A stretch of 64,000 bases of DNA from the NCBI GenBank assembly GCA_001662655.1, contig KV460291.1; one strand, written 5' to 3'. This DNA comes from Pseudogymnoascus verrucosus. Lineage: Eukaryota. Each line of letters starts with the position of its first letter. Position 1 is the stretch's first letter. A program made the position numbers and the translations under genes. Positions 7,759 to 24,514 of the stretch are shown piece after piece. Below the pieces are notes generated by a model. It searched no databases, was not told the DNA's origin, and was given only the letters and a program-made list of their open reading frames with translations.

Positions 7759-9543
7759 CTAGGCGTAGTCTAGGGCGACAGCGTCCCACATAAATCCATG
7801 CCAGAGCGTCTCTCTCGTAACTTGGAAGTCCAAAGTATTCCAACCCCTCTTCAGAGCCCCGTTTTCAACCGGGAACTCGTAGTAATGCCACTCTCCCGCC
7901 AAGGTACCAGACCGATACATACACGGGTCAGTCAGTATATTGGCGCTCGTAAGGTTCCCCACAGTCGTAGCGCCGTTCACAACGATCGTAGAGCTGACGC
8001 CACTGGAATACCCGGCAAGCGAGACGGAGAGCACGGCGGACGAGTCGTTCGGGAGCTTCGGGACATTGAATTTGACGGTCCAGTTCCCCTTAGCGGATTG
8101 GCCGAAGCACCAGTCTGAGGTTTTACTGGTGCCAACAGTGTAGGTAAGGTTTGCGGGGCAGTTGACCACAAGTGCGTGTTGGTGGGGTGCCCCTCCGTAG
8201 GCGAACCCCAACGACGTCCTGTCGAAATCCCCGATTTGGAAGATATTCCTCCTGTCTTGAGTCTTCCAAGTGAGGTGCCCTAGATTGGTACCCTTTTTCT
8301 TAGTTACTACAACATCGTTCTTTATGAAAGTCGTCGAAACATCACCAATGGCACCGCCGTTGGACCAGGCTTGAAATGCATAGCTTGCGGTGCGGACATT
8401 CTTGAACTGGAAGTTGCCGGCCTTGTCAGTGTAGGCCGTATAGTAGTAGTAGCGACCCATATCGAGAGTGGTCTCATTGGGGTGGTTGTCGCCAAGGAAG
8501 ACGGCAGCATTAGAAGCAGGGCGACCGTCTGAGAGGATAAGTTTTCCAGATACGGAGCCGCGCGACTGGTAAGCATCGTTGTCAAACCAAGGATATGGGT
8601 AGGTAGAGATTTCCTTCTTCGCTTTGTGAGATGCATCATTGAGGCTGCCATCGTTCTGTATTATGTGTTAGCGGAATAATTATTAGATGTTTGTCGGCAA
8701 ACTCACCAAATACCAGAGCCATGGCCCCCAGACCTTGCCAACTGGGAAAGCATCAGAGGCCGATGCCATGAAGTGTGTCCCGTGAAGCATGTTTAGCTGA
8801 ACAACATCTCCTGTTGCAGTCTCTCGGTGCACCATCAGTTCTTGCTTTAGATGGTCTCCATTGTATTCATCCTTTCCCGCATTGATGTACCAGCTGCCAA
8901 ACCCAGGACCGTACACGCCATAATACTCCTGGTCTCGGAGTAAGGCCTGCCAGTCATACTTGGTGATATATGTGCCATCCTCCTTCACCCATGTCTCATC
9001 TTGGACCTTGGTTGCGGCAGCAATATCGGCTGAAGTTGGCAAAGCCTCATCCTTGATCGACGTATGACCATTGAAGAAGGTCGTGTTGTCAAGACGCCAG
9101 AGAGTTCTAAACTCTCCAAGGATCGGAAGAGCGCGGTTAACAAAGTATTGATATGCCCCAGCAAGCTCAGGTTGGATAACCCAATGAAGTTCTCCTTCAG
9201 CAGCTTCAAAGGAAATATCCAAGTAGTCTTTGGTCTGCTTATGGATAGATACGGTAGTCCAACTCAGATCTGATGCTGCGCCATCTGTAATTATGTTAGT
9301 TACTGGGGAGGTGATGTGATAAGGATAGTTGAACTAACTGTAGCTCGCATAGTGCCCAACTGCGTTACCCACTATATCCCTGTTCTTATAGAAGAGCTTC
9401 GTGCCATATTGCTTGCCAATAGTGACGTTCCAGATATCATTGCCAATGATGTGCTCTTCGGGACCAATTGTCTTCAGGAAAGGGCCTTTGGCATGAACTT
9501 GGGTGGCAACTGCCAGGGCAGATGCCAAGATGCTGAGTCTCAT
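7759..9543 (-). CDS. Polysaccharide lyase family 4 rhamnogalacturonan lyase, secreted, 3 exons
   Basis: Signal peptide MRLSILASALAVATQVHA; motifs GEFRTLWRLD, KVQDETW, TKYDW, NGDHLKQELMVH, GPWLWY and IGDFDRT; C-terminal MWDAVAL. Confidence 0.85.
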
Positions 9544-10556
9544 TTTGAAATAAGGTATAAATTTGCCAAGCTGCTATGGAAGGATACGAAACACCCAGAA
9601 AACGAGATCTACCGTACCTTTTTTATACAACCAACCGCGCGTCCGTCATGCTCATCATCCCTCGAGCATGCTTGGGACGGCAGGCTTAGCTGCAACTGCA
9701 TATATTAAACTCGGCATTCCGGAACGATTTATAGCGAGTTATAGAGGCGGTAGATTACCCCAAATGCACTACATGTTATGATATTCACGGCAGACCTTCA
9801 CAAGCGCTACCCCTTGAGCCGTGATGACATATGTCACGGGGAGGGGCTTTGACAATTTGCTTATGAACCGTCGGCTCTTAGAATAAAGCTACCATTACCC
9901 TATTACCCTTGCGGAGATTGTTGCGGTTGGTAGAGAACGACGCTATTCAAGTTTATTGCTGGGTTATGTTAGTAGTATGCGGGCTCTATGCGTGTTGCAT
10001 GGGGGGATAGACGATCGACGGAGAAATTGACTCCGTCCATCAAAACAACCTAGAGTAATACTCCAATCAGTTCGGGGCACTTACGCGCTTCGTTCGACAC
10101 TCCACTGTACCTGGCTGGCTAACATACCCCGAAAGCGCGGGGAAATATAATATTACTATACTATACTGTCATGGTATGATATTGCTGAACCGAGGGCAAA
10201 CAACGGCGGCGTACTTTGACAGGCAATCTCGTTCATGGAAAGCTACTCTATTAACGCCTCCAAAGTGCTTCCCCGCCTTTCTCCGCAATCTAGCTCATTT
10301 ATCCCCACAAACTGACAAAATAACCATGTCGCAATTCGGGCACGTCGGGGTATCATACCCCAGATCAGAAGCATTCCATAGTGATCTGCCTCTTTTTCTC
10401 TTTTCCCCAGAAAAATGCAATCTGACTGCGTCATTAGGCGCAGTAGCCGGCCATGGCAAGCTGGGGAGTGCGAGAACTACAAAACCATGGAGTTTACCCA
10501 TTTGTGAGTGGTTCAGCGATCAAGGCGAGTTCTGAATTCCCTATCCGTCAGTCATC

Positions 10557-12765
10557 ATGGCAAAATCAAAGTCAGTTTTGGCGATTGTTCCGCTCTTCGT
10601 TTGTCTCTCGAATCTTGTTGCCCCTACTCGGGCATTCCTTACTGCAAAGGATACAGGCCCTCAATTGGTCATCGCCAACGACAGACTCTATGCTGCCGTC
10701 AACAAAACGACTGGCGCAATCCAGAATCTGAGCTTAGATGGACAAGATTTGCTTGGTGCCCCTGGATATGAAAACCCAACACCAGGAGGCGCTACCGGGA
10801 ATGGAGCAAGCGGCCTTGGGCCATATCTCGACTGTTACTGCACCCCGTCGGGCTTCTATACTCCCGGGCACCTCGCTCCTAGGTATCAGTTGATCAATGG
10901 CACCGACTCATCCAAAACTAAGTACGGAGGCATTGTGATGAGCGAGACCTATCCAGCAACTGGTCAGGTTCTTGAGCAGTATTGGTTCCTGAGAGAAGGA
11001 GAGACCGGCCTGCACACTTTCAGCCGACTTACTTATAACAACAAGACCACTCCCTTTTTGAGAAATCTACAGGAGTTCCGCACTCTGTTCCGCCCGAACA
11101 CAGCTCTGTGGACCGATCTCTCCACAAATGAGAAGCAATACGCACCCTTGCCGTCCACAGAGGCCAAGGCGAAGCAGGTTACTGTTCAGGATGCAACCTG
11201 GTACCTCGGCAACACACCGGATGATCCATACGTGCAGCAGGAGGGTGATTATTTCACCAAGTACACTTTCCAGGATACCTGGAGAGACCATGATGTCCAC
11301 GGAATGTACGCGGACGGCAAGTACAGTAACGATGGCAGCACTTTTGGTGCCTGGCTCGTTATGGGTGTCAAAGATACTTACTTCGGAGGACCATTGCATT
11401 CGGATCTGGTCGTAGATGGTATTGTGTATAATTACATGGGTAAGTCAAATACACCAATCTGAACCCATCAACTACTGATTCTTAGAAAGTGAGCAACCAC
11501 CATGGTGATGGCACTCCCAACATCACTGATGGATTCGACCGCACATTCGGCCCAGTGAGTGTCCTGCAATTGCCATTAATCACACTCATATTCTAACCAC
11601 CCACAGTCATATTTCCATTATAACAAGGGTTCCCCAACGACAACACTGCAAGAGCTCCGCCAGGACGCTCTGCAGTACGCCTCACCAGACTGGAACGCTG
11701 ACTTCTACGACGACATTGCCAAGTACGTGCCAAACTATGTCCCAACCACCAAGCGTGGAACCTGGAAGGGACACGTCAAGCTCCCCAAGGGTGCCACCAA
11801 GCCGCTCGCTGTCTTGGCTCAGAACGGTGTCGACTTCCAAGACAATGACCAAGATACGAAAGCGTACCAGTATTGGGCCGACATTAACCCGAAGACTGGC
11901 AACGTCGAGATCCCCCGCGTCAAGGAAGGCACCTACAGACTGACCATCTACGCCGACGGTATCTTCGGGCAGTACACCCAAGACAACATTGTGGTCAAGG
12001 CCCGCAAGACGCAGAACACACACGTGAACTGGAGCGAGGAGAGCGCCGGCAAGGAAATCTGGCGCATCGGCACGCCCGACAAGTCCGCGGGCGAGTATAA
12101 GCACGGATACGAGCTGAACCTGGAAAAACCATTACAGCCTGAGCAATATCGCAACTACTGGGCCGCATATGACTTTCCCACCGAGTTCCCCAACGGCGTC
12201 GTGTACAAGGTGGGCGAGAGCGATGCCGGCAAGGACCTGAACTACATTCACTGGAGTGTCTTCGGAGGCTACGGGAACTCGGTGCGCACGGAACCCTACT
12301 ACGAGAATGTAAATAACTGGACCATCCAGTTCGATCTGACCAAGAAGGAGCTCAATCACAAGAAGAAGGCAACCTTCACGGTGCAGCTTGCGGGCGCGAA
12401 GACTGCGGCGGGAAACACGGATGTGTATAACGCGTCGGAGCCCTTTGCGAATCTCCCATACACCGTTGCGGTTAATGGGCGCGACCTGAAGCCTTGGGTT
12501 ATTCCGTAAGTTTTGTCAGTATTGGATAGGGGTTACAGAAAGCTAACTTGGTCATAGGTACTACCACAGCAGTTCTTGCGGTGTGCGGTCGGCTGTTATC
12601 TGCTACAACATCGACAACAAATTCGCGTTTGATACGTCGCTGTTGGTCGAGGGTCTTAATGAGTTCACTCTCAGTCTGCCATATAACGCTATTGACTACG
12701 AGAGCGCGGTGTTGGCACAATCCACGTATGTGCAGTACGATGCGATGCGGTTGGAGATTGAGTAG
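10557..12765 (+). CDS. Polysaccharide lyase family 4 rhamnogalacturonan lyase (RglB-like), secreted, multi-exon
   Basis: Motifs GPYLDCYC, LQEFRTLFRP, VQDATW, YFTKY, GGPLHSDLVVDGIVYNY, SNHHG, IWRIGTPDKS and VQYDAMRLE. Introns at about 11439-11488, 11554-11606 and 12506-12557. Confidence 0.88.
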
Positions 12766-13111
12766 GGCTGCCTTTGACGATAGTCAGAAGCTGGCGCGTG
12801 GAAGATATCTCTCCTGCGGATAGACCTGTTATTACAGGTTCTAGATAGCCATACTATAGCTTCCATATAATAATCCTCTATTTTTAAATACGGGAGTATA
12901 TAAAAACCAATTGTTGGACTCCAAACGTTTCAGGATGAGCGGATGTGAGACCTTGAAATTAAATATATCTCTGTTATTTCCATCGATTCAATTCAAAATA
13001 ATATTCTCATATAGGAGTGCAACTACAGCGTATCGGATTACAGTGCCACACTAAGCACCTATCCCCAATTACAAGAGTCCAACTTAGCATGCAAATCGAA
13101 GACGAGAATAA

Positions 13112-13582
13112 TCATCCACATCTACATCTATATCCGCACCCACGCCCCATTCTTCTCGGCTCCGCAATGCAGATCTCCGCGCATGTCATCGCTAATATAG
13201 ATATAATCATTTTGAAGTCATGAGTTCCATGATAGAACGCAATCATCTCGGCCGTCATGATAAAAATACTGCACATAAATAGAGTAATCGCAAAGACCAT
13301 GGTCGCAATAATTCTGATGGATCCTGCTTCATTTGCGACACTCTTAAGAAATTGTAAAAACTTTTTGGCTCTTGTTTGTATGCTGTTGTCCAGATATCGA
13401 GGTGGGCCAGAAGAGAGATCTTGGCCTATAGTATCCTGATTCCCGTCGTCCACAGCTTCGGGATGCTCGCTGGCGTCGTCTGAAAGTTCAGAGATATCAA
13501 TTCTTGTCTTCGAGATATTCATTTCCATATCGGCGAGGAGTTGTGGTAATGGAAGGTATGGATAGATAGGTAGTTTTGGCAC
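13112..13582 (-). CDS. Hypothetical membrane protein, divergent from the cassette array
   Basis: 156-aa ORF starting at GTG (first ATG gives MEMNISK). Acidic N-terminus followed by two hydrophobic segments. No family recognised. Confidence 0.35.
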   Translation of the reverse strand: MPKLPIYPYLPLPQLLADMEMNISKTRIDISELSDDASEHPEAVDDGNQDTIGQDLSSGPPRYLDNSIQTRAKKFLQFLKSVANEAGSIRIIATMVFAITLFMCSIFIMTAEMIAFYHGTHDFKMIISILAMTCAEICIAEPRRMGRGCGYRCRCG

Positions 13583-13843
13583 GTTAGAAAATATTCGAGA
13601 AGGGAGGGAGCTTAAGTCGCAAGATGTATCGTATGATGATGATGATCATGTTGCCGGATAGCTTCATTTATCATTAGACCACGCAATTTCGAGCTAGCTA
13701 TCACACTTGGTCCTTCCGTTCTTGGATATGAAACTAAGTCACCACTTACCCACCTTCTATCTGAACTACCTCCTGCCACAGTATACCTCCAAAAAAATCG
13801 CTACCATGATTTCCCATCTCTCAGACACCCACAGAGAATAGCA

Positions 13844-14154
13844 ATGCATAACGTCGAAGCCACCAATAACAACCATGAACCCACCATGCGCCGAGCCTCA
13901 CCATCAACCTACAGGCACAAACTCACCTAAACAGCCCCGATCCCGCCACAGAAGCGTCCTCCCATCAGCTGGTTGGATTCCCTAAAGCAGCTCCACGCAA
14001 AGTTAAGCGCGTTCTTCCTGATCTTCGCTGAAACACTAGGGTTAATATGTTCGGCATATTGCTCGTGTCCGCAATGGCGCTCTTCGTCGTTTGGGGGCTT
14101 ATGGTTTTAGCGGGGTCTTTGCTGCTCGATGGGCTGAAGGCATGCGTCCGTTGA
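13844..14154 (+). pseudogene. Array cassette 1, frameshifted
   Basis: MHNVEA start, then PPQKRPPISWLDSLKQLHAKL in another frame, then MFGILLVSAMALFVVWGLMVLAGSLLLDGLKACVR* after a further frameshift. Confidence 0.7.
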
Positions 14155-14404
14155 TCGAAAGGAGGAGGGTGTTGCCCGACGCGCTTGGGGAACACGGCAC
14201 GGAGAGACAAACACCTGTTAGGAAAGTACGGGATGGGCGATAGTAGGAAAAAAGGAGAAACGTACGATGATAATGAAACCGCTTCTATGACTACTCTTAT
14301 ACATGAATACAAGCCACCGCACCCCCCACCTTCCATAAAAACCACCCATTACGATAATTTCCCCTACGCATATCCTCAACTCAAAATCCACCATTTCTAT
14401 ATTC

Positions 14405-14734
14405 TTGACGACAGCAACACCCGCTCAAAATAACAATGCACAACACCGAAGCCAACCCCCTCCTATCCAAACCTCCCCAGCGAGACACGCAACTCCCCGA
14501 GCCTACCCCGTGCCGCAGCTACCCAAAATGCCGCCTATTAGTCGCCTGGAGAAACTCAAGAAGCTTGACGCAACTTTAAAGGCATATACCCCAGTACTCA
14601 TGGAGCTATTCGGCTTCGTGCTTGGCACAATAGGGTTGGTAACGGTCGCATTGGTTGCCTTGGGGGTGGCGGTGGGGCTGCTGGGACTTGTGTTGCACGT
14701 ACTGATCCTGGGGGCGAAGGCAGTTTTTCATTAA
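14405..14734 (+). CDS. Array cassette 2 small membrane protein (likely start ATG 14528; ancestral MHNTEA ATG at 14436 is out of frame)
   Basis: MPPISRLEKLKKLDATLKAYTPVLMELFGF followed by a ~35-aa hydrophobic stretch and GAKAVFH*. Confidence 0.7.
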   Translation: MTTATPAQNNNAQHRSQPPPIQTSPARHATPRAYPVPQLPKMPPISRLEKLKKLDATLKAYTPVLMELFGFVLGTIGLVTVALVALGVAVGLLGLVLHVLILGAKAVFH

Positions 14735-15021
14735 TCAAATGGTAGAGGGTTGCCCAACGGATCAAGGAGCGCAGAGATGAACAGTTGTCTAGAAACAGAG
14801 AAGCGACCGATAATTTAAAAGTAGTACAATAGTACGACCATGTGCCCCTAGATCATGCCGCTTCCAACTATCACCTCATTTCTTGCTTTCTAGGAAATGA
14901 ATACAGACTACCGCCTTCCACCTCCTAGCACAATATATATTCCCATCCATAGTCCAAGATAAAAAACCACCACCTCCAACTCCTAGACGACATCGACCTA
15001 CCACCCAGAAATAAAACAGCA

Positions 15022-15364
15022 ATGCATGACCTCGAATCCGCTATGCACAACTCTAATACCTAGTCTAACTCGTCTCCCCCTCTCTACCCACCAATGCCAA
15101 GGTCGGCCCAAACTTCTCCAGCCAGCAGCACACCAATGATGCCACCCTCGCGTCAGAAATCTTAGATCAGCCGCCTGAATAACTCAAGAGCAGCTCAACA
15201 AAACTTTGAGCGAGTACAGCCCAGAGCTGGAGGATCTGGCCGGACACGTGGTCCACACGTTGATGATATGTCTTGGGGTGATAGTTGCAGTTGTAGTTGC
15301 GATGGAATTGATTGGCGGATTATTGTATCTATTTTTCCTAGGGGTGAAGGCGATTTTCTTTTGA
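15022..15364 (+). pseudogene. Array cassette 3, two in-frame TAG stops plus a frameshift
   Basis: MHDLESAMHNSNT*(15061)..PPLYPP..RQKS*(15163)ISRL, then a frameshift to QLNKTLSEYSPEL..LICLGVIVAVVVA..LFFLGVKAIFF*. Confidence 0.75.
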
Positions 15365-15626
15365 TGTAAGTGAAGGTTAGTTCCTTGTGCGCTCTGAATT
15401 TTAGAAAAGGATGGGGCAGTCGATAGTCGGAAGGAAGAAATATCGTATGATCATTATGCTCCTTTAGACCATGCCGCTTCTAGCTATCACCTCATTCCTT
15501 CCCTTCCTAGAAATGAATATAAAGAATTACACCACCTACTTCTTGTCCAAACCACCACGTACCAATGATAATTATTACTAGTACAATGCTAAGAAGAAAT
15601 ACTCAAGCATCCTGAACGTTATCAAA

Positions 15627-15977
15627 ATGCATCACCTTGAAACAGCAATGAATAACCTCGAAATGGCAATGAGTAACCTCGAAGCAGCAATTGATAACTT
15701 CGAAACAGCAAAACACAACTCTGGGGTCCAACTCCCCTCGCCTTTTTCTTCCTACCCAGAGGCAAGCTACACGTACCACAGCACTCAAACGAACCCCCCT
15801 CCTTTACAGGGGACTCCTGATATCTCAATGAGATTCAAGCAATATGACGCATTTTTTGGCGGGTACGGCCCAGACCTCGGATTTGAGATTGGAGTGATAG
15901 CATTCTGGACGAGCAGGCTGGTTGTTGTAGGATTGGTGGTAGTGTTGGTGTGGAATGTGTTGTACTTGTTATTTTAG
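15627..15977 (+). CDS. Array cassette 4 small membrane protein with N-terminal heptad duplication
   Basis: MHHLETA-MNNLEMA-MSNLEAA-IDNFETA 21-bp repeats; HSTQT; YGP; hydrophobic C-terminus. The usual LGAKAI ending is frameshifted off. Confidence 0.65.
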   Translation: MHHLETAMNNLEMAMSNLEAAIDNFETAKHNSGVQLPSPFSSYPEASYTYHSTQTNPPPLQGTPDISMRFKQYDAFFGGYGPDLGFEIGVIAFWTSRLVVVGLVVVLVWNVLYLLF

Positions 15978-16280
15978 GAGCGAAGGCCATTTCCTGTGAT
16001 CGAAGGCGGGGTCAGCACCTCATGCGCTCTAGGTGCATGAAGTTAAACAGTTGTCGGGAAGGGATGAAGAGTGTGACATTATCATACGACGATTATATGC
16101 CCTTGGGCGATGTGGCTTCTAGATATGATCTCATTCGTTCCTTTCTTAAAAATATAAACCATCACACTTCCCACAACTCTTCACCACCTCCTATCACGAT
16201 AACTATACCAATCCACATCGCACACCGCCCCAAATAAACACACACAAACCCAAACCGTCAAACGCCACCAACCTCCCAAA

Positions 16281-16526
16281 ATGGCCCTACCAAAGCTCGA
16301 AACCGCATCCATCGCCCCTCGACCACCCCCAACCCTCCTGGAGAAACTCAGCCGCCTTGACGCAAGCTTTCAGACATACGGCCCCATCCTCGTGAGATGC
16401 TTTGAATTCATAACGCTCACATCTTTGGGGGCGCTGGCGATAATAGCCCTGGTTACTGCCTTACTAGGAGGCATAGGACTTGCGTTATTCTTGTTGGTTC
16501 AGGGCGTAAAGCTGGTTCTCACTTAA
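16281..16526 (+). CDS. Array cassette 5 small membrane protein
   Basis: caaaATG context; MALPKLETAS..PPTLLEKLSRLDASFQTYGP, hydrophobic stretch, GVKLVLT*. Confidence 0.75.
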   Translation: MALPKLETASIAPRPPPTLLEKLSRLDASFQTYGPILVRCFEFITLTSLGALAIIALVTALLGGIGLALFLLVQGVKLVLT

Positions 16527-16793
16527 TCGAAGGAGGAGATGTTGCCCGATGGGTCCTTGAGGACGTGGAGATATGGACAGCTTTTATGAAGGGGGGGACT
16601 AGGTGATATGAGAAGCGGTATCGTACGAAGTTAATTCCAGGTCGGACCATGTTGCTTTTATCACCTCATTATTTCCGTTCTTAGAAATGAATATAAACCA
16701 CCACACTACCCATCACTCTACTTTCAAACCCCCACCTCGAAAAATAATCATCACGCCTACAGTAAAGTCTCAAAACACCAACGAACCCACAAA

Positions 16794-16988
16794 ATGGCAC
16801 TTCCAAGGCTTGAAACCGCATCCATCGCGCCCCGGCCCCCCGCCCTACAGAACATCTTCGTATTCGTGCTTGGCGCGTCACTGGCGACGGTGGTAATGGT
16901 AGGCGCGGTACCGCTGGTGCTATTTAGCGTAGGAGCGGCGTTGTTCGCGTTGTACCAGGGGGGGAAGACAGCTATGGAGAACTCATAG
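16794..16988 (+). CDS. Array cassette 6 small membrane protein, internally deleted
   Basis: MALPRLETASIAPRPP is nearly identical to cassette 5. The LEKL helix is missing and the hydrophobic tail is kept. Confidence 0.6.
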   Translation: MALPRLETASIAPRPPALQNIFVFVLGASLATVVMVGAVPLVLFSVGAALFALYQGGKTAMENS

Positions 16989-17294
16989 CTGTCTTCATCT
17001 CCTAGACTGGTAGCTGCAGCTTGCTCGGTGAAAGGTTTCCGGGCATGGAGGGACTAATGATTCTCGGAAAAGATGGGGGTTGGGGTGTCAAAGGAAGTAG
17101 CATCATACGACCACTCCGGAACGTACGACTTCTAGTTATCACCTCACTCTTTCCTTTCCTGGAAATAAATATAAGGAACCACACTACCCACGTCCACTCC
17201 CACTACCTCCGCCAGAATAACCTTATTACCGCCTTTAAACTAAAAATCCACAACACCAAACATCCAAACACCGCAGTGTCCAAAAACCAGAAAA

Positions 17295-17624
17295 ATGCAC
17301 ACCCCAAAAACCGCCGCGCACAATTTCAAGCCCCCCCCTTCCGTACTTCCACCACCATGCCCACCTCCCTGCTTGTTATGCCGCAAAACCCCGCCCGCCC
17401 CAGCAGAGCCCGCCACCAGTCTGCTCGTAAAACTTGAGCGCCTCGAGGAAACACTAAAGGCGTATGGGCCGGTCTGTGTAAGACTATTCGAACTGGGGTT
17501 GCACGCGGGGTTAATGGTGATCTTGGGGACGGTGATGGCGACGCTCGTGGTGTTAACTGTGGGGGGTGCATCGGCCCTGTTGCTGTGCCTGTTGGTTGAG
17601 GGATTGAAGGCTATTATGGGCTGA
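17295..17624 (+). CDS. Array cassette 7 small membrane protein
   Basis: MHTPKTAAHN, Pro-rich stretch, SLLVKLERLEETLKAYGPVCVRLFEL, hydrophobic stretch, GLKAIMG*. Confidence 0.75.
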   Translation: MHTPKTAAHNFKPPPSVLPPPCPPPCLLCRKTPPAPAEPATSLLVKLERLEETLKAYGPVCVRLFELGLHAGLMVILGTVMATLVVLTVGGASALLLCLLVEGLKAIMG

Positions 17625-17789
17625 TCGGAAGACGGAGGAAGAAGGAAGGGGTATCGTATGAGGATTATGTGTCGTCAGATCAGACATCACCTCATTCTTT
17701 CCCTACCTAGAAATCAATATAAGCCACCACCATATCACGCAACCCATCTCCTACAACTACCAATTACCACCACCAAACAAAAAACAAAC

Positions 17790-17950
17790 CACAACGCCAA
17801 AACACCAGTCTGTGTAAGACTATTCGAATTCGTGATGGATAAATTGTATCTATTTATCTCGGGGTTGGCAACGGGGGCGGCCGTGGGACTAGTCGTGGTG
17901 GCGGTGGTGGTCCTGTCGGTTCAAGGGTGGAAGTTGGTTAGGGGTTATCG
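17790..17950 (+). pseudogene. Array cassette 8, 5'-deleted and stop codon lost
   Basis: PVCVRLFEF matches cassette 7 at the DNA level (gtctgtgtaagactattcgaa). No ATG at the expected position. The usual TRA-TCGAA ending reads TTA-TCGAA. Confidence 0.65.
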
Positions 17951-18158
17951 AAAGAGGGACGAGGAAGGGGTGCTGTATGAGGATTGTCAGTACTCGAACC
18001 ATGTGTCGTCGCAGCAGGAATCACCTCATTCCCCCCTCTCCCGGGAATGAATATAAAGAACCATCGCACCACACAGCTCTCCTCCCACCACCACCGCCTA
18101 CCACGAACCGCAAGCGCACCACCCCCAACCTCTCAACCTACCATCAAACCCATCAAAT

Positions 18159-18461
18159 ATGGCCCCTCCAAAGCTTGAAACAGATTCCCTTGCGGCACTA
18201 TCTCTTAAATACGCCAAACCAGTCAAACCCGTCAAACCTGTCAAACGCACAAAACCCCCCCTCACCGTCCTCGAGAAACGAGAGCGCCTGGAGAGAACTC
18301 TGAAATTGTACTCGCCTGTCTGTGAAAAGCTATTTGTATTCGTGGTTTGCGGGTCGCTTATGTTGATCACCGCGTTGATGGTGGTGTCGCTCTTGGTGTT
18401 TTGCATTTGGGTTGCAGTGTATTTCTTGTCGAGGGGGTGGCGATGGCCGTGGTCTGGTTAA
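18159..18461 (+). CDS. Array cassette 9 small membrane protein
   Basis: MAPPKLETDS, (KPV)3, PPLTVLEKRERLERTLKLYSPVCEKLF, hydrophobic stretch, GWRW. Confidence 0.75.
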   Translation: MAPPKLETDSLAALSLKYAKPVKPVKPVKRTKPPLTVLEKRERLERTLKLYSPVCEKLFVFVVCGSLMLITALMVVSLLVFCIWVAVYFLSRGWRWPWSG

Positions 18462-18685
18462 AGGGGGGGTAAAGGGGAGGGTATCGTATGAGGATTATGT
18501 CTCGTCAACAGACCATGTGTTAGAGTATTAGTTATCGCCCCATTCCTTCTGTTCCTGGAAATAGATATAAATCACCACACCACCGACTTGTTCTTACAAC
18601 CTCCTTAAAAATACCACTCACTATCCCAAAATCCGCCACTTCCCTCTGAACTCTCAAATACAACCAACCCGATAAACAAGCTACA

Positions 18686-18994
18686 ATGCACAACCCTCCA
18701 GCCACCACCGGCACTCAACCCCTCGCACCTCCTCCCTACCAACTATCATCTCGCCAGACGCATAGCCGCGGGACCCAAACCGACTCCCCTCTACCACAAG
18801 CAGCCCCTCGCAAACGCCCCACCACCCTCCTAGAAAAAATAAATTTGTGCAACAACATACTGGATGAGTACCTTCCGGCCTTAATGGAACTTATGATGCG
18901 CACAATGGTTGGGCTCTTGATGCTGGCGTTTGCGGCCATTCCGCTTGTGATCGCGTTTATGGCGGTGTTCGGGTTTGGGGCGTGGAGGAGATGA
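18686..18994 (+). CDS. Array cassette 10 small membrane protein
   Basis: MHNPPATTGTQPLAPPPY..RGTQTD..PTTLLEKINLCNNILDEYLP, hydrophobic stretch, GAWRR*. Confidence 0.75.
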   Translation: MHNPPATTGTQPLAPPPYQLSSRQTHSRGTQTDSPLPQAAPRKRPTTLLEKINLCNNILDEYLPALMELMMRTMVGLLMLAFAAIPLVIAFMAVFGFGAWRR

Positions 18995-19379
18995 GGCGGT
19001 GGGTAGTATGGAGTCTGTGATTGTTTGGTTCTAGGGTGGAAGGTGGTCGTGGGGTGATGGAAAAGGGGGGGGAGGGGGGGTGTCGTACGAGGGTTCGGCG
19101 TCCTCGAACCACGCGCCGAAGGAGTAGCTAGATATCTCCTCATTATTCCCTTTCATAGAACTGATAAGTGATAATTAACCACCCACCCATATCACCAACT
19201 TCTTCTTCTTCCTACCTCCACTACAAATACCCATTACCAACACACCCCAAACCCACCACTTCCATCTATCCAACGCCAACCAGCAGCCCTCATAAATAAC
19301 GCACCAGTGAATCCCCCAACCGCCCTCTACAACTCCTCCGCCCAATACCCCGCCCCTACACCCCTCTTAAACAAGCACA

Positions 19380-19770
19380 ATGATCAACCCCTCTGCAACC
19401 ACCAGTGCCCAACTCCCCCCACCTCCTCCTTACGACTCACGTTCTCCCTACAACCCACATCCTCAATACAGCCCACGTCCTCCCTACAACCCACATCCTC
19501 CCTACAACTCACGTCCTCCCTCCAACCGACCTCCTCCCCACAACCCATCACCCCACAAAACGCACCAAGGCACCCAACCCAGCCCCTGCATCTGCATCTA
19601 CACCGCACCCGCGCCCTCTCTCGCGCCACCCCCCCCTTCACTTTTCTCCAAAACCCCAAGAAGAAGAAGAAGCTCGACTGCTGTTGCCCGGATTTACTCT
19701 TGTCCTCATCGTGCTGCTGATTGGGAGGATGGTTTTCACTGCTGTTTGGTGTGGTTTGGGGAAGGGGTGA
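19380..19770 (+). pseudogene. Array cassette 11, frameshifted, with internal 18-bp repeats
   Basis: MINPSATTSAQLPPPPPY followed by PYNPHP/PYNSRP repeats and THQGTQP. The helix (PPFTFLQ..KL) and the hydrophobic tail (LLLPGFTLVLIVLLIGRMVFTAVWCGLGKG*) lie in other frames. Confidence 0.65.
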
Positions 19771-19976
19771 GGTGGGATGGGGGTATCGTATGAGGATTGT
19801 GGATGGACTGATTAGGGGTATCACCTCATTATTTCCTTGCTTAGAAAGGGATATATAGATAGAACTATGCAACCCCCATCTCTGAACCCATCACCACCTA
19901 CCTACAACCCAAAATCCAGCACCCTCCCTCTAGACTCTCAAAAATCCAACAAACAACGCCCTTCAACCCACCAAAA

Positions 19977-20315
19977 ATGCACAGCCCCTCGACCATCACC
20001 ACCACCACCACCGGCGCCCAACCCACGCCTCCTCCCTCCCACCCACCATTCCGCCAAACACATCAAGGCACCCAAACCACCCCCTCTGCCTTTACCCGCC
20101 CACCCCCCCCTCCTCCCACACCAACCCCCATCCCAAAGCCCCCCTCCACCACCTTACCTGAAAAACTCCAGAAGGTCGATGCGAACCTCAAGGAGCTCGC
20201 CCCGGTCGTGGGGAGTATATTGGAGACGCTATCTCCTGTGATGGAGGTTGGGTTTATGGCGCTGATGGCGGGGGGGTTTTTTGCGCTTGTTTGGTATGGG
20301 ATTCGGCTAGGGTGA
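19977..20315 (+). CDS. Array cassette 12 small membrane protein
   Basis: MHSPST..TGAQPTPPP..RQTHQGTQT..TTLPEKLQKVDANLKELAP, hydrophobic stretch, GIRLG*. Confidence 0.75.
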   Translation: MHSPSTITTTTTGAQPTPPPSHPPFRQTHQGTQTTPSAFTRPPPPPPTPTPIPKPPSTTLPEKLQKVDANLKELAPVVGSILETLSPVMEVGFMALMAGGFFALVWYGIRLG

Positions 20316-20545
20316 GGTGGAGGGGTGGTATGAGAGTTGTGTTGTTGTGAGGATTGTGGGTGTCGTATGAGGATTAGCTGGAGTCGGATCAGGGGGGTAT
20401 CACCTCATTATTTCCTTTCTTAGAAAAAGGATATAAACAACCATACCACCACATACTTTTCTAAACCAATCACCACCCACCAATCCCAAACCCAGCACCT
20501 CGAACCTCTCAAACACCACCAACCCCTTAACCACCAAAACCAAAA

Positions 20546-20870
20546 ATGCACAACCCCTCAACCACCACGGGCGCCCAACCCCTCCCACCACCTCAGCAGA
20601 CACACCGAGGCACACAAACCCTCCCCATCTCCGCCCAACCCTCTCCTCCTCCCCCCTGCGCCCCTACAAAACCTCCCCCCCCCCCCAACCCGCCTCGAGA
20701 AACTCGAGGCCCTCCACAGAACTCTCGAACAGTACGTGATGGTGGGCATGGACTTTGGGTTCCTCGCATTCTGCGCGATGACGATGGGGTTCATGATGTT
20801 GTTGGTGGTGGGGGCGTTTGTGGTGGGGCCTGTTGTGGTGGGGTGGAGGGCTTGGAGGGGGGAGTCGTGA
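20546..20870 (+). pseudogene. Array cassette 13, frameshift at a C12 run (or a sequencing error)
   Basis: MHNPSTTTGAQPLPPP..THRGTQT. After the poly-C at 20675-20686 another frame gives TRLEKLEALHRTLEQYV..FLAFCAMTMGFMMLLVVGAFVVGPVVVGWRAWRGES*. Confidence 0.7.
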
Positions 20871-22192
20871 TGGTGGGTGGGTGGGTGGTTGCTTGAGTGA
20901 TGGGGATGCGTGGAGGGTGATGGGTAAGAGTCTTATTTTTCAAGATTTATGAATGCGGAAAAGGAGATTAATGACCTTCCCCGACCGTAGGGCGAAAATG
21001 CGTAGCCGTCGCATCCAAAGACGGAGTGCTCGTCCACGATATCGACTAAGTCTGCTAGACCGGGAATTTTGTGTTGGATTTGAGCAGGGAACTCCGCTGC
21101 CATGTTTGTATACTAGTTCGCACTATCCGATCTATGTTAAATGAAAAACTAAGGACTTTGAAATCACGCAAGTCTTTGTTTAACAGCAGGTTACTAGTAG
21201 AATTGATTAATGCTACAGTCGCTAGATAACTTGATTGTGGTGCATAATATGAAGACACTACAGGACTTCGAATGCGCAATGTTAACGGGGCTGCTGCTAT
21301 ACACGCGTTAACATCATATGTCCTCTTGCTAGTGAAAGTCGTACGTAGGCATAGAGTAGATTCTAAAGTTCTTCTTCATTGTTTATAGCATAACTTCGTA
21401 TAACATTCTCTTAGGAAAGGGGGGGGGATAGCTTCACTAATTGAGCGAGCGTCATTAGCAACTACTCTACGAACGAGAACTGTATCTTTGAAGCGTTAAA
21501 GGCGACTAAGGAAGGTGTGCTGAAGTCTAGAGATGTCAAGGCTCTGGATTCACTTAAGGCTCACCTTGAGGCTGACACGTCGATCAGCAAGTTGGGCTGC
21601 TGACAAGGCCTGGCTGGATGCCTTGTTCGTTTCACCAGTTGAGGAAAACCGCACCAACAAAGGGGGCGCTAATGTTAACTTTGTTAATTCTTGTTTGCGT
21701 GGGAAATGATGAGGGAAGTTGGGGGGGGGGACTGTAGGTTAGAAGTAGATTAAGTGATTACAGCATTTTCTCTCATCACTGAATAAAAACGAAAGACATG
21801 CAAAAACACGGCAATTGAAGAAAGGTCTTAATATTATCTCTCCCAACCCCATCTAAGATTCCCTCACCCGCTCATGAACGAGTTACATGGACATCCCATC
21901 TCTCAAAAGCATGCAATGCGGCCGAAACGCAAAACGCAATGCAGTAGCAGGTACCTCGCGATCTCTCTTCCTCTCTATCCTTCCTTCCTCGTGAATCACC
22001 CTCTCAGGGAGACACGGCAGCAAACTTTAAAAAAAGAAAAGCTTTCACTTCCAATCTTGTTTTTCTTCTCAACGCCCTAAAATTCCCAAAAACACAAATA
22101 TCAAAAGCCATGGACATCAAGACATTAACAACTACCACTCAAAATCCCTTAAAATAGGAAAACAATGCGACCACGTCTCTAAAACACGGCGC

Positions 22193-24514
22193 TTAAGTCG
22201 TTTTCGGGCCAGCAGCGATAACATCCTCAGTCGCCTCATCAGAGTACTTCTTGAAGTTCTCATTGAACAGAACACCAAGCTTGTTGACCTCAGCCTTGAA
22301 GCTCTCATCACCCGCAGTCCACGCGTTGCGGGGGTTAAGCAGCTCCGATGGGACGTTAGGGCAAGTCTTGGGGACGGACAGGTTGAAGGTATCGTAGACC
22401 TCGTACTCGACGTTCTGGAGCTCACCAGAGTGGATAGCATCGAGGATAGCACGAGTGTACTTGAGCGGGCAGCGCTTGCCACCGGTGGCGGCACCGGCAC
22501 CAACCCATCCGGTGTTGAGGAGCCAGGCGTTGGCCTTGTGCTCCTCGATCTTGGAGGCCAGCATCTTGGCGTAGCGCATGGGGTGGAGGGCGAGGAAGGG
22601 CTGGGCGAAGCACGAGGAGAAGGTGGCTTGGGGCTCGGTGACGCCCTCTTCGGTGCCGGCCATCTTGGAGGTGTAGCCGGAGATGAAGTGGAACATGGTC
22701 TGGGCGGAGTTGAGCTTCGAGATGGGGGGGAGGACACCGCGCGCGTCGCAGGTGAGGAGGATGATGTTGGTGGGGTGGCTGGAGGAGACGCAGGGGATCT
22801 TGGCGTTCTGGATGTACTCGATGGGGTAGGCGCAGCGGGTGTTCTCGGTGAGGGTGATGTCGTCGTAGTCGACGTGGCGGGTATCTTGGTTGAACACGAC
22901 GTTCTCGAGGACGGAGCCGTACTTGATGGCGCCGTAAATATCGGGCTCCTTCTCGGCGGACAGGCCGACGCACTTGGCGTAGCAGCCACCCTCGATGTTG
23001 AAGACACCACGGTCGGACCAGCAGTGCTCGTCATCACCGATCAGCTGGCGGTTGGGGTCAGCAGACAGAGTGGTCTTTCCGGTACCAGAGAGACCGAAGA
23101 AAACGGTGACATCGCCATCCTTGCCCTCGTTGGCGGAGGAGTGCAGGGTGAGCACGTTGTGCTTGACCGGCATCTCGTAGAAGAGAACTGTGAAAACACC
23201 CTTCTTCATCTCACCAGCGTACTCGGTACCGAGGATAACCATCTCCTTGTCGGCGAAGTTGATGGCAACCGAAGTGGCGGAGGTCATGCCCTCAGTGAAT
23301 CTGTTTGCTGGGAAAGAACCGGCGTTGTAGATGGTGTAATCGGGGTGGAAGTGCTCAAGCTCAGATCTCTCCGGGCGGATAAGCATGTTGCGCATGAACA
23401 GAGCGTGGTAGGCACGCGCGCAGACGACGCGGACCTTGATTTGGTACTTCTTGTCCCATCCTGCGTAACCGTCGATAACGTAGATGCGGTTCCTTGTGTT
23501 GAGGTAATCAATGGCTCTCTCGCGGTTAATCTTCCAGACCTTTGATAATATAGAGTTAGCAAACGCTCAATGTTTGTGTGGTGGCATAATGTGATAAACT
23601 GTGAAGAGTGCACGTGATGGTGGGGAAATTTTGGGGGATGTTGTCTTGGCGAGCTACGGTTGTCGGTAACGCCAACGGCAGTCAAAACCAGAAGGCGGGG
23701 TAACAGGGCAGTGATGTCAGGTCGGAATTGGCACCCGAGGAAAGCCGAAACATCACCCTCGCGCATTATCGTAATGCGACGACAACAAGACGTAAGCGTG
23801 CCAATGCAGACGCATTGAGGTCTTGGGAGCACGGGATCCGGGGTAGGGATACAAAATGTAGACATGTAGATATTCGCAAAAAAAGGTTCTCTTACCTCAG
23901 TAGTCATTGGCTTGTTAACAGGGCCCCACCAGATCTCGTTCTCAGAAGATGGCTCCTTGACAATACGCTTGTCGAGAGGAGATCTGCCGGTCTTCTTTCC
24001 GGAGTATGCAGTAAGAGCACCGCTCGATGTGATGGCTGAACCGGTCTCGTAAACTAAGGCATCTTCGTAGAGGGCAGCGACTGAGGGGTTGGGGACCTGA
24101 GAGAGCATATGTCAGTGGGGTTAGATTTTCAGAGAGTGGCAGGCAGGACATACGATGGCAACGCGGTCATAGTCGAGGTTGGCCTTCTCGTGGAGCTCCT
24201 CCTCGAGCTCAGTGTGCTCGAAAGAAGGTCTAAGACACGCATGTAGTCAGTATATTGATCCGAGGCAGGTAGACAGGCAACGACGACGAGGTCTGAGGGA
24301 CAGGCAGGAGCAAGTGGGAAACTCACGCAACACCACCCGGGTGCAGGGCGGTCTTGTTGACGGTGTTGGAAACCATGGTGCGCAGTGAAGTGGAGTGGTA
24401 GTTCAGATTTCCAGATGCAAGTTGTTTAGATCGAGGGCCAAGGTGTGATGGATCGGGAGTAGGGGTCATAGGACGACGAGTTGGGCCATCGCCTTCTTTA
24501 AGTACAGGAGCCAT
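22193..24514 (-). CDS. PCK1: Phosphoenolpyruvate carboxykinase (ATP), multi-exon
   Basis: Motifs [49 protein letters not shown] and [10 protein letters not shown]. Start is either 24514 (MAPV) or 24376 ([15 protein letters not shown]). Confidence 0.95.

What the first reader, a model, noticed from the sequence alone, without database searches (positions are those of the whole stretch)
13626..20870. Array of 13 leader-plus-ORF cassettes encoding a hypervariable family of small membrane-anchored proteins
Seen: 13 head-to-tail units of about 330-690 bp, all on the + strand and intronless, between a PL4 gene and PCK1. The ORFs share one layout: MHN/MAxP start, Pro-rich disordered region, (T/S)xLEKLxxLDxxLxxYxP helix, a 30-40-aa hydrophobic segment and a G(x)K/GWR ending. 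The proteins diverge strongly, while the non-coding leader stays recognisable. About half the copies carry frameshifts, stops or deletions. Inference: this is a birth-and-death gene family under diversifying pressure. Such patterns suit allorecognition, poison-antidote (spore-killer) or antagonism/immunity loci. I recognise no described family, and standard gene callers would miss most copies.
Basis: partly seen in the sequence, partly recalled or inferred. Interest (0 to 1): 0.92.

Follow-up and report, generated by a model that had tools for sequence, protein, structure and literature searches.

The report
Tandem array of tail-anchored protein genes
A Pseudogymnoascus-type fungus carries thirteen head-to-tail copies of a small gene, each with its own conserved upstream control block, encoding an undescribed family of tiny membrane-anchored proteins named only in that genus; about half the copies are broken and the function is still unknown.

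Summary
Between a PL4 lyase gene and PCK1 lie 13 + strand units of 334-686 bp. Each unit has two conserved upstream blocks, the second ending in a TATA-like element. A G-poor leader and a small intronless ORF follow.

The ORF layout is a Pro-rich disordered N-tail, an LEKLxxLDxxLKxYxP helix, and a hydrophobic segment ending about 5 residues from the C-terminus, which is a tail-anchored layout. Seven units are open, and one of these has an in-frame deletion. Six are broken, but U2's break is private to this assembly.

No Pfam, PDB, Rfam or Atlas match was found, and no paper in the held library. Every named homolog is from Pseudogymnoascus, including P. destructans.

Birth-and-death evolution is supported. 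Paralogs are old, each has its own orthologs, and close strains appear to carry one or two extra units. Diversifying selection is not supported.

An ancestral PPPY motif in the N-tail suggests recruitment of an Rsp5-type ligase; this is inferred, not shown. Expression could not be tested.

The parts
13626..20870 (+). Whole array: 13 head-to-tail units (U1-U13)
   Evidence: D1 with 13 copies, D4 with 8 copies; family profile hits only here; upstream block only here
13626..14154 (+). U1, broken. Block A at 13626, block B at 13701 (no TATA-like element), ATG at 13844, in-frame TAA at 13928-13930, then a frame change before the hydrophobic part
   Evidence: Runs X3 and X5 lack 2 nt at 14045, which removes the frame change
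14276..14734 (+). U2. Degenerate block B, ATG at 14436, frame lost near 14524. The C-terminal 68 codons (14528-14734) are open
   Evidence: All 4 laid runs carry an extra A behind 14524. With it the ORF is 99 codons, like P0003
14870..15364 (+). U3, pseudogene: ATG near 15022, two in-frame stops and a frame change; helix and membrane part at 15179-15361
   Evidence: E=2.2e-13. Intact relatives are P0020 and P0026
15486..15977 (+). U4, open ORF 15627-15977 (116 aa). Its N-terminus is extended by 21-nt repeats that give NLExA heptads
   Evidence: orthologs P0008 (111/116) and P0010 (87/109)
16125..16526 (+). U5, open ORF 16281-16526 (81 aa), MALPKLETAS-type start
   Evidence: P0015 72/81, P0018 54/81
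16660..16988 (+). U6, ORF 16794-16988 (64 aa), open but lacking the helix
   Evidence: P0014 and P0007 keep the helix. X3 and X5 carry about 625 and 1130 extra letters at 16837-16840
17138..17624 (+). U7, open ORF 17295-17624 (109 aa)
   Evidence: P0013 107/109, P0017 56/109
17686..18019 (+). U8, truncated 334-bp unit: the upstream block joins directly to the membrane part (about 17793-17948); no family ATG, N-tail or helix
   Evidence: E=1.7e-4
18020..18461 (+). U9, open ORF 18159-18461 (100 aa)
   Evidence: P0001 99/100, P0016 52/90
18534..18994 (+). U10, open ORF 18686-18994 (102 aa); the only open unit in the window that keeps PPPY
   Evidence: AlphaFold2: residues 1-47 without structure, 48-101 one helix
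19134..19793 (+). U11, pseudogene: no TATA-like element, ATG at 19380, an 18-nt repeat (7 copies) encoding a PY-rich tail, helix region replaced by an AAG run, frame lost near a C run at about 19628
   Evidence: Not found by the family profile. Still closed with X2's indels
19820..20315 (+). U12, open ORF 19977-20315 (112 aa)
   Evidence: P0011 59/91
20399..20870 (+). U13: ATG at 20546, one frame change inside a C12 run (about 20674-20685), then helix and membrane part to the stop at 20870
   Evidence: E=7e-17; printed run
11580..12509 (+). Upstream flank: last part of a PL4 rhamnogalacturonan-lyase gene
   Evidence: PF14686 1.2e-27, PF14683 1.2e-13
13112..13528 (-). Neighbouring 138-aa ORF on the other strand; not a family member
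   Evidence: hhalign probability 0.3%; 3 unnamed homologs at 99, 72 and 58%
22193..23566 (-). Downstream flank: PEP carboxykinase (PCK1)
   Evidence: PF01293, 1.3e-172

Best explanation
This is an old tandem family of independent small genes, so far named only in Pseudogymnoascus.

Unit anatomy. Each unit carries its own control region. This is a GTATCGTATGAGGATT-like block, then about 35 nt later a CACCTCATT...TTC-N3-GAA...ATATAAA block whose TATA-like end lies about 100-130 nt before the ATG. A G-poor leader follows, with a purine at -3 of the ATG.

Product. The protein is 64-116 aa. It has a disordered Pro-rich N-tail and one long helix. The first 16-19 residues of the helix are amphipathic (LEKLxxLDxxLKxY) and the rest is a very hydrophobic segment that ends a few residues before the C-terminus.

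Inferred mechanism.
- The proteins are tail-anchored. They would be inserted after translation, with the N-tail left in the cytosol.
- The shared upstream blocks would make all live units respond to the same transcription factor(s).
- The N-tail would act through short linear motifs. The clearest is an ancestral PPPY, the class of motif that binds WW domains of Rsp5/NEDD4 ligases. PPPY-bearing members would be membrane-embedded Rsp5 recruiters, or Rsp5-sorted proteins themselves.
- The fast-changing membrane helix would set the partner or the location.

Array dynamics. The array changes by unequal exchange and decay, under weak purifying rather than diversifying selection.

My odds. A real expressed gene family: about 0.8. 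Tail-anchored topology: about 0.75. The blocks are a promoter: about 0.6. A PPPY-Rsp5 link: about 0.3.
For: Shown:
- Anatomy and 13-fold repetition. TATA-like element in 9 of 13 units, TTC-N3-GAA in 7 of 13, CACCTCAYT in 8 of 13.
- All 7 open units keep the TATA-like element. The three multi-lesion pseudogenes U1, U3 and U11 do not.
- Block A precedes U1 and is absent after U13, so it belongs to the 5' side of each unit.
- The blocks are conserved across genomes. Mis-called N-terminal extensions of P0018, P0023 and P0037 translate them: 77% over 26 aa and 65% over 40 aa against the window.
- A purine sits at -3 in 12 of 12 ATGs, and it is A in 10.
- ORFs are kept open across genomes. Each open unit has a far closer database ortholog (48-99% identity) than its best window paralog (35-49%). 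The tree has two clades at 100/99 support.
- The one listed strain indel inside an open ORF is in frame (9 nt, U10).
- Differences by codon position follow 2nd < 1st < 3rd: 0.464, 0.549, 0.593.
- AlphaFold2 gives a disordered tail and one helix with pLDDT above 90 in the P0003 model and about 84-94 in the U10 model: P0003 residues 37-98, U10 residues 48-101.
- In 44 members the median uncharged segment is 34 aa, the best 19-residue hydropathy is 2.65, the C-terminal tail is 5 aa, and no full-length member has an N-terminal hydrophobic stretch.
- PPPY occurs at one aligned place in 13 of 44 members, spread over both clades. Shuffled tails give a mean of 2.0 and a maximum of 9 in 2000.
- Among orthologs the N-tail is the best conserved part: 69%, against 64% for the helix and 59% for the membrane part, over 16 pairs.

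From the literature: PY motifs bind the Rsp5 WW domains, and integral-membrane PY adaptors exist, namely Bsd2, Tre1/2, Sna3, Ear1 and Ssh4 (PMC6314561, passages read).
Against: - No transcript or protein evidence of any kind could be obtained.
- Selection is poorly measured. There are 6 non-synonymous and 4 synonymous changes, giving dN/dS of about 0.5, which is not distinguishable from 1.
- In run X2 the array diverges 0.67% against about 0.2% in the flanking coding sequence, close to what unconstrained DNA would show.
- Databases hold only called ORFs, so broken orthologs are invisible and the retention of open ORFs is biased upward.
- PPPY is absent from 6 of the 7 open units of this window and from 31 of 44 members. 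It cannot be the function of the whole family. The members are related, so the shuffle figure is not a probability.
- Upstream ATGs are not depleted in the leader: 4 against 5.5 expected.
- The two blocks could also be read as a 54-nt intron (GTATGA ... CTCAT ... TAG).
- The TTC-N3-GAA spacing is not that of a canonical heat-shock element (recalled), and no fungal factor for it was found.
- A hydrophobic stretch of about 34 residues is long for a single pass. AlphaFold2 on a monomer cannot tell a tilted helix from a hairpin.
Confidence: 0.6

Rival explanations
1. Poison-antidote or self/non-self system. The membrane helix would be toxic or would mark identity. The N-tail would neutralise it by Rsp5-dependent sorting, as in fission-yeast wtf drivers. 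Copy content would differ between strains, causing incompatibility or drive.
For: - wtf antidotes use N-tail PY motifs to bind Rsp5/NEDD4 ligases and are toxic without them (PMC10721834, abstract read).
- Here PPPY sits in the N-tail of 13 of 44 members.
- N-terminally shortened forms exist: P0026 and P0035, and U2 in this window.
- Close strains appear to differ in unit number.
- Many copies are decayed.
Against: - Alleles of close strains are 95.8-99.3% identical with no hypervariable unit.
- pN/pS is below 1 in 28 of 28 paralog pairs.
- No conserved internal Met or second start was seen.
- The proteins have one helix, whereas wtf proteins are multi-pass.
- There was no Pfam match at E<=1 to any toxin or wtf family.
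- Orthologs persist across species, as ordinary genes do.
Confidence: 0.08
2. Mostly dead DNA. An old burst of tandem duplication of one small gene is now decaying. The open ORFs and conserved blocks survive by chance or low mutation, and at most one or two units still work.
For: - Six of 13 units are broken and one is internally deleted.
- Array divergence in X2 (0.67%) lies between flanking coding sequence (about 0.2%) and the intergenic stretch at 20710-21730 (1.6%).
- dN/dS of about 0.5 rests on 10 changes.
- No RNA evidence is available.
Against: - Paralogs are saturated at silent sites (pS 0.49-0.78), yet 7 ORFs of 64-116 codons stay open and keep the same layout.
- Orthologs at 48-80% identity are also open.
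- Block B is kept across genomes.
- Loss of the TATA-like element goes with ORF decay in U1, U3 and U11.
- The ATG context is kept in 12 of 12 units.
Confidence: 0.15
3. The conserved blocks are not a promoter but a short intron of the 5' leader. The 5' site would be GTATGA in block A, the branch CTCAT, and the 3' site the TAG in block B, about 54 nt apart. Transcription would start further upstream, possibly running through several units.
For: Read directly from the sequence. GTATGA or GTACGA is kept in most units. A pyrimidine tract and TAG lie 16 nt after CTCAT. The distance between the two sites is typical of fungal introns (recalled knowledge).
Against: - Conservation runs well beyond splice signals, into ...GAAATGAATATAAA after the putative 3' site.
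- The retained exon would start with an ATG that opens an out-of-frame upstream ORF, for example 16687-16896 over U6's start.
- Only about 27-100 nt separate the previous stop from block A, which leaves no room for another promoter.
- CTCAT is a poor match to the CTRAY branch consensus (recalled).
Confidence: 0.15
4. Stress-protective small hydrophobic proteins, working like the PMP3/RCI2 or Sna type. They would be co-induced through the GAA-repeat dyad by a heat-shock-factor-type regulator and would act on membrane properties rather than through Rsp5.
For: - The TTCnnTTCnnnGAAnnGAA dyad is built of GAA units.
- The segment is very hydrophobic and rich in small residues.
- The genus is cold-adapted (recalled).
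- Most members lack PPPY.
Against: - There is no similarity to PMP3 or any Pfam family.
- The dyad spacing is not canonical, and TTC-N3-GAA is intact in only 7 of 13 units.
- The N-tail, not the membrane part, is the best conserved region among orthologs.
Confidence: 0.12

Closest known systems
Tail-anchored membrane proteins as a structural class (examples recalled: Sbh1/Sec61-beta, Fis1, SNAREs)
   Same: No N-terminal signal, a single hydrophobic segment at the extreme C-terminus with a median 5-residue tail, and the rest predicted cytosolic.
   Different: There is no sequence relation to any of them. The uncharged segment is unusually long, median 34 aa. The genes sit in a 13-unit tandem array with a shared upstream block.
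Integral-membrane PY-motif adaptors of Rsp5: Bsd2, Tre1/Tre2, Sna3, Ear1, Ssh4 (PMC6314561, passages read)
   Same: Small membrane-embedded proteins whose cytosolic part carries PPxY. PPPY lies at a fixed place in the N-tail of 13 of 44 members.
   Different: No homology was found. These proteins have one C-terminal helix instead of multi-pass or SPRY-bearing architectures. PPPY is lost in most members, including 6 of the 7 open units here. Binding to Rsp5 is untested.
wtf poison-antidote drivers of fission yeast (PMC10721834, abstract read)
   Same: A fast-evolving, multi-copy, lineage-restricted family of membrane proteins with PY motifs in an N-terminal cytosolic tail. Many copies are decayed.
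   Different: wtf proteins are multi-pass and make two products from alternative starts. Here there is one helix, no conserved second start, a tandem array rather than dispersed copies, and no sequence similarity.
PMP3/Sna-type small hydrophobic proteins (recalled)
   Same: Very small, very hydrophobic fungal membrane proteins.
   Different: Those have two membrane helices and almost no soluble part. Here a 15-65-residue Pro-rich tail and an amphipathic helix precede the anchor. There is no Pfam match.

Membership tests
Tail-anchored proteins (structural class) | A single hydrophobic segment close to the C-terminus | tested here: met
   in 44 members the median uncharged segment is 34 aa and the median C-terminal tail is 5 aa; one helix running to the C-terminus.
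Tail-anchored proteins (structural class) | No N-terminal signal or other membrane segment | tested here: met
   an N-terminal hydrophobic window appears only in the two truncated forms (P0035, U6). N-tail disordered. This was a hydropathy scan, not a dedicated predictor.
Tail-anchored proteins (structural class) | Post-translational insertion (GET or related pathway) with the N-terminus in the cytosol | not testable with these tools
   Needs localisation and insertion assays.
PY-motif Rsp5/NEDD4 adaptors | [L/P]PxY in a cytosolic region | tested here: inconclusive
   Present in 13 of 44 members against a shuffle mean of 2.0. In the window it is found only in U10 and in the broken U11.
PY-motif Rsp5/NEDD4 adaptors | Physical binding to Rsp5 WW domains and Rsp5-dependent ubiquitination | not testable with these tools
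PY-motif Rsp5/NEDD4 adaptors | Homology to a known adaptor family (Bsd2, Sna3, Ear1/Ssh4, arrestin-like) | tested here: not met
   no such Pfam family at E<=1 for 8 units; nothing in PDB sequences.
wtf meiotic drivers | Multi-pass membrane protein | tested here: not met
   a single C-terminal helix.
wtf meiotic drivers | Two products from alternative transcription starts | tested here: inconclusive
   No conserved internal Met in alignments A1, A2 or A4. No RNA data.
wtf meiotic drivers | Sequence membership in the wtf family | tested here: not met
   no Pfam hit to a wtf family at E<=1.
Transposon or satellite fragment | Similarity to transposase or other mobile-element proteins, copies elsewhere, terminal repeats | tested here: not met
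   no such domains; no copy outside 13626-20870 in 64 kb; no RIP-like composition. No repeat library was available, so known fungal repeats were not searched.
Known RNA families (for example snoRNA clusters) | A match to an Rfam model | tested here: not met
   only two chance-level hits (E=0.22 and 0.7), far below the gathering scores.

The most novel reading that the evidence does not exclude
The array would be a fungal toxin-antidote or self-recognition battery that works like wtf but is built from single-helix tail-anchored proteins. The membrane helix would be the harmful or identity-bearing part. The PPPY-bearing N-tail would send the protein, and any partner it binds, to Rsp5-dependent degradation. 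Loss of PPPY, N-terminal truncation and unit gain or loss between strains would then create incompatibilities.
Probability: 0.07. Interest if true: 0.85.

Novelty: new variant of a known kind. Interest (0 to 1): 0.45.

Why it matters
Three reasons.

1. It defines an unnamed protein family. At least 31 clusters at 50% identity match it, and every named source is Pseudogymnoascus. That genus includes the bat white-nose fungus P. destructans, which has at least one annotated member, VC83_09292. Genus-restricted membrane proteins are candidates for genus-specific biology, and current annotation calls them only partly.

2. The locus is a clean natural experiment. Thirteen old paralogs keep one upstream control block while their coding parts have diverged to 35-49% identity. 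Loss of the TATA-like element goes together with ORF decay. This makes both the cis-element and its factor directly testable.

3. If the PPPY tail does recruit Rsp5, this would be the first tail-anchored, tandemly expanded form of the membrane-embedded Rsp5 adaptor or substrate. It would also be a possible stepping stone to wtf-like toxin-antidote logic.

Tried and rejected
- Whole genome: none is held for this window. Family size and other loci in this genome are unknown.
- RNA evidence: no RNA holder is listed among 16 runs. All four runs laid were contigs. Run X10 holds a 1,055-bp contig over 13743-14796 at a depth like that of the PCK1 3' end. I read it as low-coverage DNA of a relative, not as a transcript.
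Two metagenome scans with A3 and P0010 found no relative. Only the visible part's difference table could be used; 779 rows were not shown. I took the X2 rows up to 17549 as complete for that run, which is an assumption.
- Pfam gave only sub-threshold chance hits: Avr2, PRA1, RAMP4, SapB_2, all below their cut-offs. PDB sequences gave designed coiled coils at E>=0.019. The Atlas gave best scores of 0.79 and 0.77, below lead level. Rfam gave nothing.
- The sigma-70 and terminator scan is irrelevant for a fungus.
- Papers: 0 hits for VC83_09292. Nothing on the family among 15 listed titles. TTCNNNGAA gave only STAT papers.
- The neighbouring minus-strand ORF is not a family member.
- RIP as the cause of divergence is not supported: composite index -0.32 for the array against -0.52 and -0.54 for the flanks (thresholds recalled).
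- Upstream-ATG depletion in the leader is not significant.
Self-association stays open.
- The apparent 6.2-kb 'insertion' in X2 between 19089 and 19992 rests on two 21-nt matches. I reject it as spurious, because X2's 7,190-bp contig is collinear over 12954-20097.
- Earlier findings of this scan: nothing for this genome or sequence. The word search returned only bacterial arrays.

Full report
WHAT IS THERE

The repeat finder returns 13 in-register copies of a 45-nt motif on the + strand. They run from 13701 to 20399, with start-to-start spacings of 334-686 bp (family D1). A second conserved block (GTATCGTATGAGGATT-like) lies about 45 nt upstream of the first in 8 units (D4).

The first copy of that second block is at 13626, before U1, and there is none after U13. 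It therefore belongs to the 5' side of each unit and not to the 3' end of the preceding one.

A strict form of the main motif is expected 0.00 times in shuffles and occurs 4 times, all in the array. A profile of the 13 copies finds no further copy in the 64 kb; the next best hit has E=2.1.

An alignment of the 13 upstream regions shows the order of elements. Block A comes first, then a poorly conserved spacer with a GACCATG..CTTC remnant. Block B follows, reading (T)ATCACCTCATT-(C/A)TTTCC-TTTC-TTA-GAA-ATGAATATAAA-ccACCAC. After it comes a leader with only 2-10% G.

Mean pairwise identities over the 78 pairs are 0.61 for block A, 0.37 for the spacer, 0.58 for block B and 0.36 for the leader. 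What stays recognisable is therefore the pair of upstream blocks. The transcribed leader is alike only in composition.

Within block B, a TATA-like element is present in 9 of 13 units, TTC-N3-GAA in 7 of 13 and CACCTCAYT in 8 of 13. The dyad reads TTCnnTTCnnnGAAnnGAA in the best copies.

THE ORFS

On the + strand there are open family ORFs in U4 (116 aa), U5 (81), U6 (64), U7 (109), U9 (100), U10 (102) and U12 (112). U2 has an open C-terminal 68 codons.

Three-frame reading of every unit shows the lesions of the rest:
- U1 has an in-frame TAA and a frame change.
- U2 loses frame near 14524.
- U3 has two stops and a frame change.
- U8 is a 334-bp unit in which block B runs straight into the membrane part, with no ATG, tail or helix.
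- U11 is degenerate. It has an expanded 18-nt repeat, its helix is replaced by an AAG run, and its frame is lost at a C run.
- U13 changes frame inside a C12 run.
- U6 is open but lacks the helix.

A family profile (A2) searched over all six frames gives 13 fragments with E<=6e-4. All are on the + strand within 13931-20867, and they cover every unit except U11. Nothing outside the array scores better than E=0.29. Five window units were part of the profile; U1, U3, U4, U6, U8 and U13 were not.

Every one of the 12 family ATGs has a purine at -3, and it is A in 10.

PL4 domains lie at 11580-12509 and PEP carboxykinase at 22193-23566. An unrelated 138-aa minus-strand ORF sits in between.

THE PROTEINS

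Alignments A1, A2 and A4 show a common plan:
- A start of the MH(N)xxET(A) or MALPKLETAS type.
- A Pro/Thr/Gln-rich tail of very variable length.
- A (T/S)xLEKLxxLDxxLKxYxP stretch.
- A hydrophobic run.
- An ending in G-x-K-xxxx (clade A) or (A/V)W-x-G (clade B).

AlphaFold2 with these alignments predicts a disordered tail and one uninterrupted helix. For P0003, the intact form of U2, it spans residues 37-98 (pLDDT block means 82-98, above 90 from residue 41). For U10 it spans residues 48-101 (pLDDT 84-94 over residues 51-100).

In 44 members the longest uncharged segment has a median of 34 residues. The best 19-residue Kyte-Doolittle window has a median of 2.65, and the tail behind the segment a median of 5 residues. 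No full-length member has an N-terminal hydrophobic stretch. These are the defining features of tail-anchored proteins. Insertion pathway and orientation are inferred from that class and were not tested.

RELATIVES

Pfam gives nothing at or above its cut-offs for eight units. The PDB sequence search, the Atlas and Rfam give nothing usable.

The word-indexed protein search found 12 proteins at E<=0.01. The exhaustive profile search of 1.84 billion representatives found 31 at E<=0.001, of which 12 are at E<=1e-10. All are 60-311 aa except one 2,678-aa protein matched only on a 19-residue stretch.

Every named source is Pseudogymnoascus. The named proteins are V501_03375, VF21_06626, VF21_06628, VE00_02653, VE00_02654 and P. 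destructans VC83_09292. The others come from unnamed assemblies. I therefore place the window in or very near that genus.

Three paper searches found no description of the family. Supplementary tables of Pseudogymnoascus transcriptome papers were not searched and could hold expression values.

HISTORY OF THE ARRAY

Each open unit has a database ortholog that is much closer than any paralog in the window. Examples are U7 with P0013 (107/109) and P0017 (56/109), U9 with P0016 (52/90), U10 with P0027 (47/98), and U5 with P0018 (54/81). The best paralogs reach only 35-49%.

A maximum-likelihood tree of 48 rows splits into two clades at 100/99 support. Clade A holds U2-U9. Clade B holds U10-U13 and the P. 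destructans protein. The ten window rows need ten changes on the tree, so they never cluster with each other. Rows left out were P0029, P0033, P0034, P0039 and the neighbour-ORF homologs P0043-P0045.

The duplications are therefore old, neighbours in the array are the closest kin, and there is no sign of recent homogenisation.

Laying contigs of four runs on 11500-23500 shows the array in close relatives.
- X2 is collinear over 12954-20097 with 48 substitutions (0.67%). Its flanking coding stretches show about 0.2%, and the intergenic stretch 20710-21730 shows 1.6%.
- X3 and X5 differ by 1.7-4.2%.
- At the U6 site the collinear pieces of X3 and X5 are separated by about 625 and 1130 extra letters. 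These include a diverged second copy of the U6 membrane part and a second copy of the U5/U6 start.
- I read this as 14 and 15 units there. The window's helix-less U6 would then be a deletion product; this is an inference from lengths.
- All four runs carry an extra A behind 14524. With it, U2 becomes a 99-codon ORF like P0003. U2's break is therefore private to this assembly and may be an error.
- X3 and X5 lack 2 nt at 14045, which removes U1's frame change but not its TAA.
- X2's indels do not reopen U11.

SELECTION

Data are thin. Of the 29 visible X2 differences, 10 fall in open ORFs: 6 non-synonymous and 4 synonymous, over 994 and 338 sites. That gives dN/dS of about 0.5.

Five of the six replacements lie in the N-tail. 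Three of the four silent changes lie in the membrane part.

Among the 28 pairs of open paralogs, pS is 0.49-0.78, which is saturated, and pN/pS is 0.60-0.97. Differences by codon position are 0.549, 0.464 and 0.593. That is the order expected for coding sequence under some constraint, though the pairs are not independent.

Over 16 ortholog pairs, identity is 69% in the N-tail, 64% in the helix and 59% in the membrane part. The fastest-changing part is thus the anchor. The 'disordered' tail is the slowest, which points to linear motifs in it.

Nothing here supports diversifying selection. Weak purifying selection is the best reading, and neutrality cannot be excluded from these counts.

The loss of the TATA-like element in exactly the three multi-lesion pseudogenes (U1, U3, U11), and its presence in all 7 open units, suggests that promoter and ORF decay together.

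The mis-called N-terminal extensions of P0018, P0023 and P0037 translate blocks A and B of other genomes. They match the window at 65-77% over 26-40 residues, so the blocks are kept across species.

HOW IT MOST LIKELY WORKS

Shown: the anatomy, the family, its age and turnover, and the tail-anchor features.

Inferred:
(i) Block B is a core promoter with a factor-binding dyad directly upstream of the TATA-like element, and block A is a second site. All live units would then be co-regulated.
(ii) The proteins insert post-translationally with the tail in the cytosol.
(iii) The tail works through short motifs.

The clearest motif is PPPY(Q)PP at one aligned position. It is present in 13 of 44 members, in both clades and in several ortholog groups. 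Composition-preserving shuffles give a mean of 2.0 and a maximum of 9 in 2000. In other members it is replaced by single-base changes of the Tyr codon.

PPxY is the ligand of the WW domains of Rsp5. Yeast has integral-membrane PY adaptors that bring Rsp5 to membrane cargo (PMC6314561, passages). I therefore propose that the PPPY-bearing members recruit, or are sorted by, the Rsp5-type ligase. The variable helix would choose the partner or the membrane.

This step has perhaps a 0.3 chance. It cannot hold for the whole family, because most members, including 6 of the 7 open units here, lack the motif.

RIVALS

The poison-antidote reading gains one real parallel. wtf antidotes use N-tail PY motifs to bind Rsp5/NEDD4 ligases and become toxic without them (PMC10721834, abstract). 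But the proteins here are single-helix, no second start is conserved, alleles of close strains are nearly identical, and orthologs persist like ordinary genes.

A 'mostly dead array' reading fits the many lesions and the near-neutral divergence. It does not fit the open, layout-preserving ORFs at saturated silent divergence.

The blocks can also be read as a 54-nt leader intron. Conservation beyond the splice signals and an out-of-frame upstream ATG in the would-be exon argue against that. Only RNA data can settle it.

A stress-protection role through an HSF-type factor is possible, but the dyad spacing is not canonical.

RIP does not explain the divergence.

VERDICT

It is an orphan, apparently genus-restricted family of tail-anchored proteins in a promoter-conserved tandem array. 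I rate it a new variant of a known kind, of moderate interest. What limits it is the lack of any expression or functional evidence.

Noticed in passing
window 13112-13528 (-): A 138-aa ORF with two hydrophobic stretches lies between PL4 and the array. It has three unnamed homologs (99, 72 and 58% identity), no Pfam family and no relation to the array family.
   Followed up: partly
window 7759-9333 (-) and 10059-12509 (+): Two divergently oriented PL4 (rhamnogalacturonan lyase) genes lie next to each other upstream of the array (PF14683 and PF14686 hits in both).
   Followed up: partly
window 19418-19547: An 18-nt repeat with 7.2 copies in the tail of the pseudogene U11 encodes a run of P-Y-N-P-H-P-like units. 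Run X5 lacks 72 nt (four repeats) here, so the repeat number varies between strains.
   Followed up: partly
window 15626-15720: A 21-nt repeat (about 4 copies) multiplies the N-terminal MHxLETA start of U4 into NLExA heptads. Relatives P0021, P0023, P0025 and P0038 have the same extension, so one subfamily has grown a short coiled-coil-like N-terminus.
   Followed up: partly
window about 14524, 14045, 19628 and 20674-20685: Several frame-breaking lesions sit at single-base or homopolymer sites (C8 and C12 runs), and two are absent from all or some related runs. Some 'pseudogenes' may be assembly errors or slippage-prone sites.
   Followed up: partly
window 12826-12970: Run X3 lacks 145 nt of the intergenic DNA between PL4 and the minus-strand ORF (joint 12825 to 12971).
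   Followed up: no
window 22159-23500 in run X10: Run X10 (kind not on record) holds many diverged PCK1 contigs from other organisms, plus low-depth contigs nearly identical to the window. It looks like a mixed community sample that contains a close relative.
   Followed up: no
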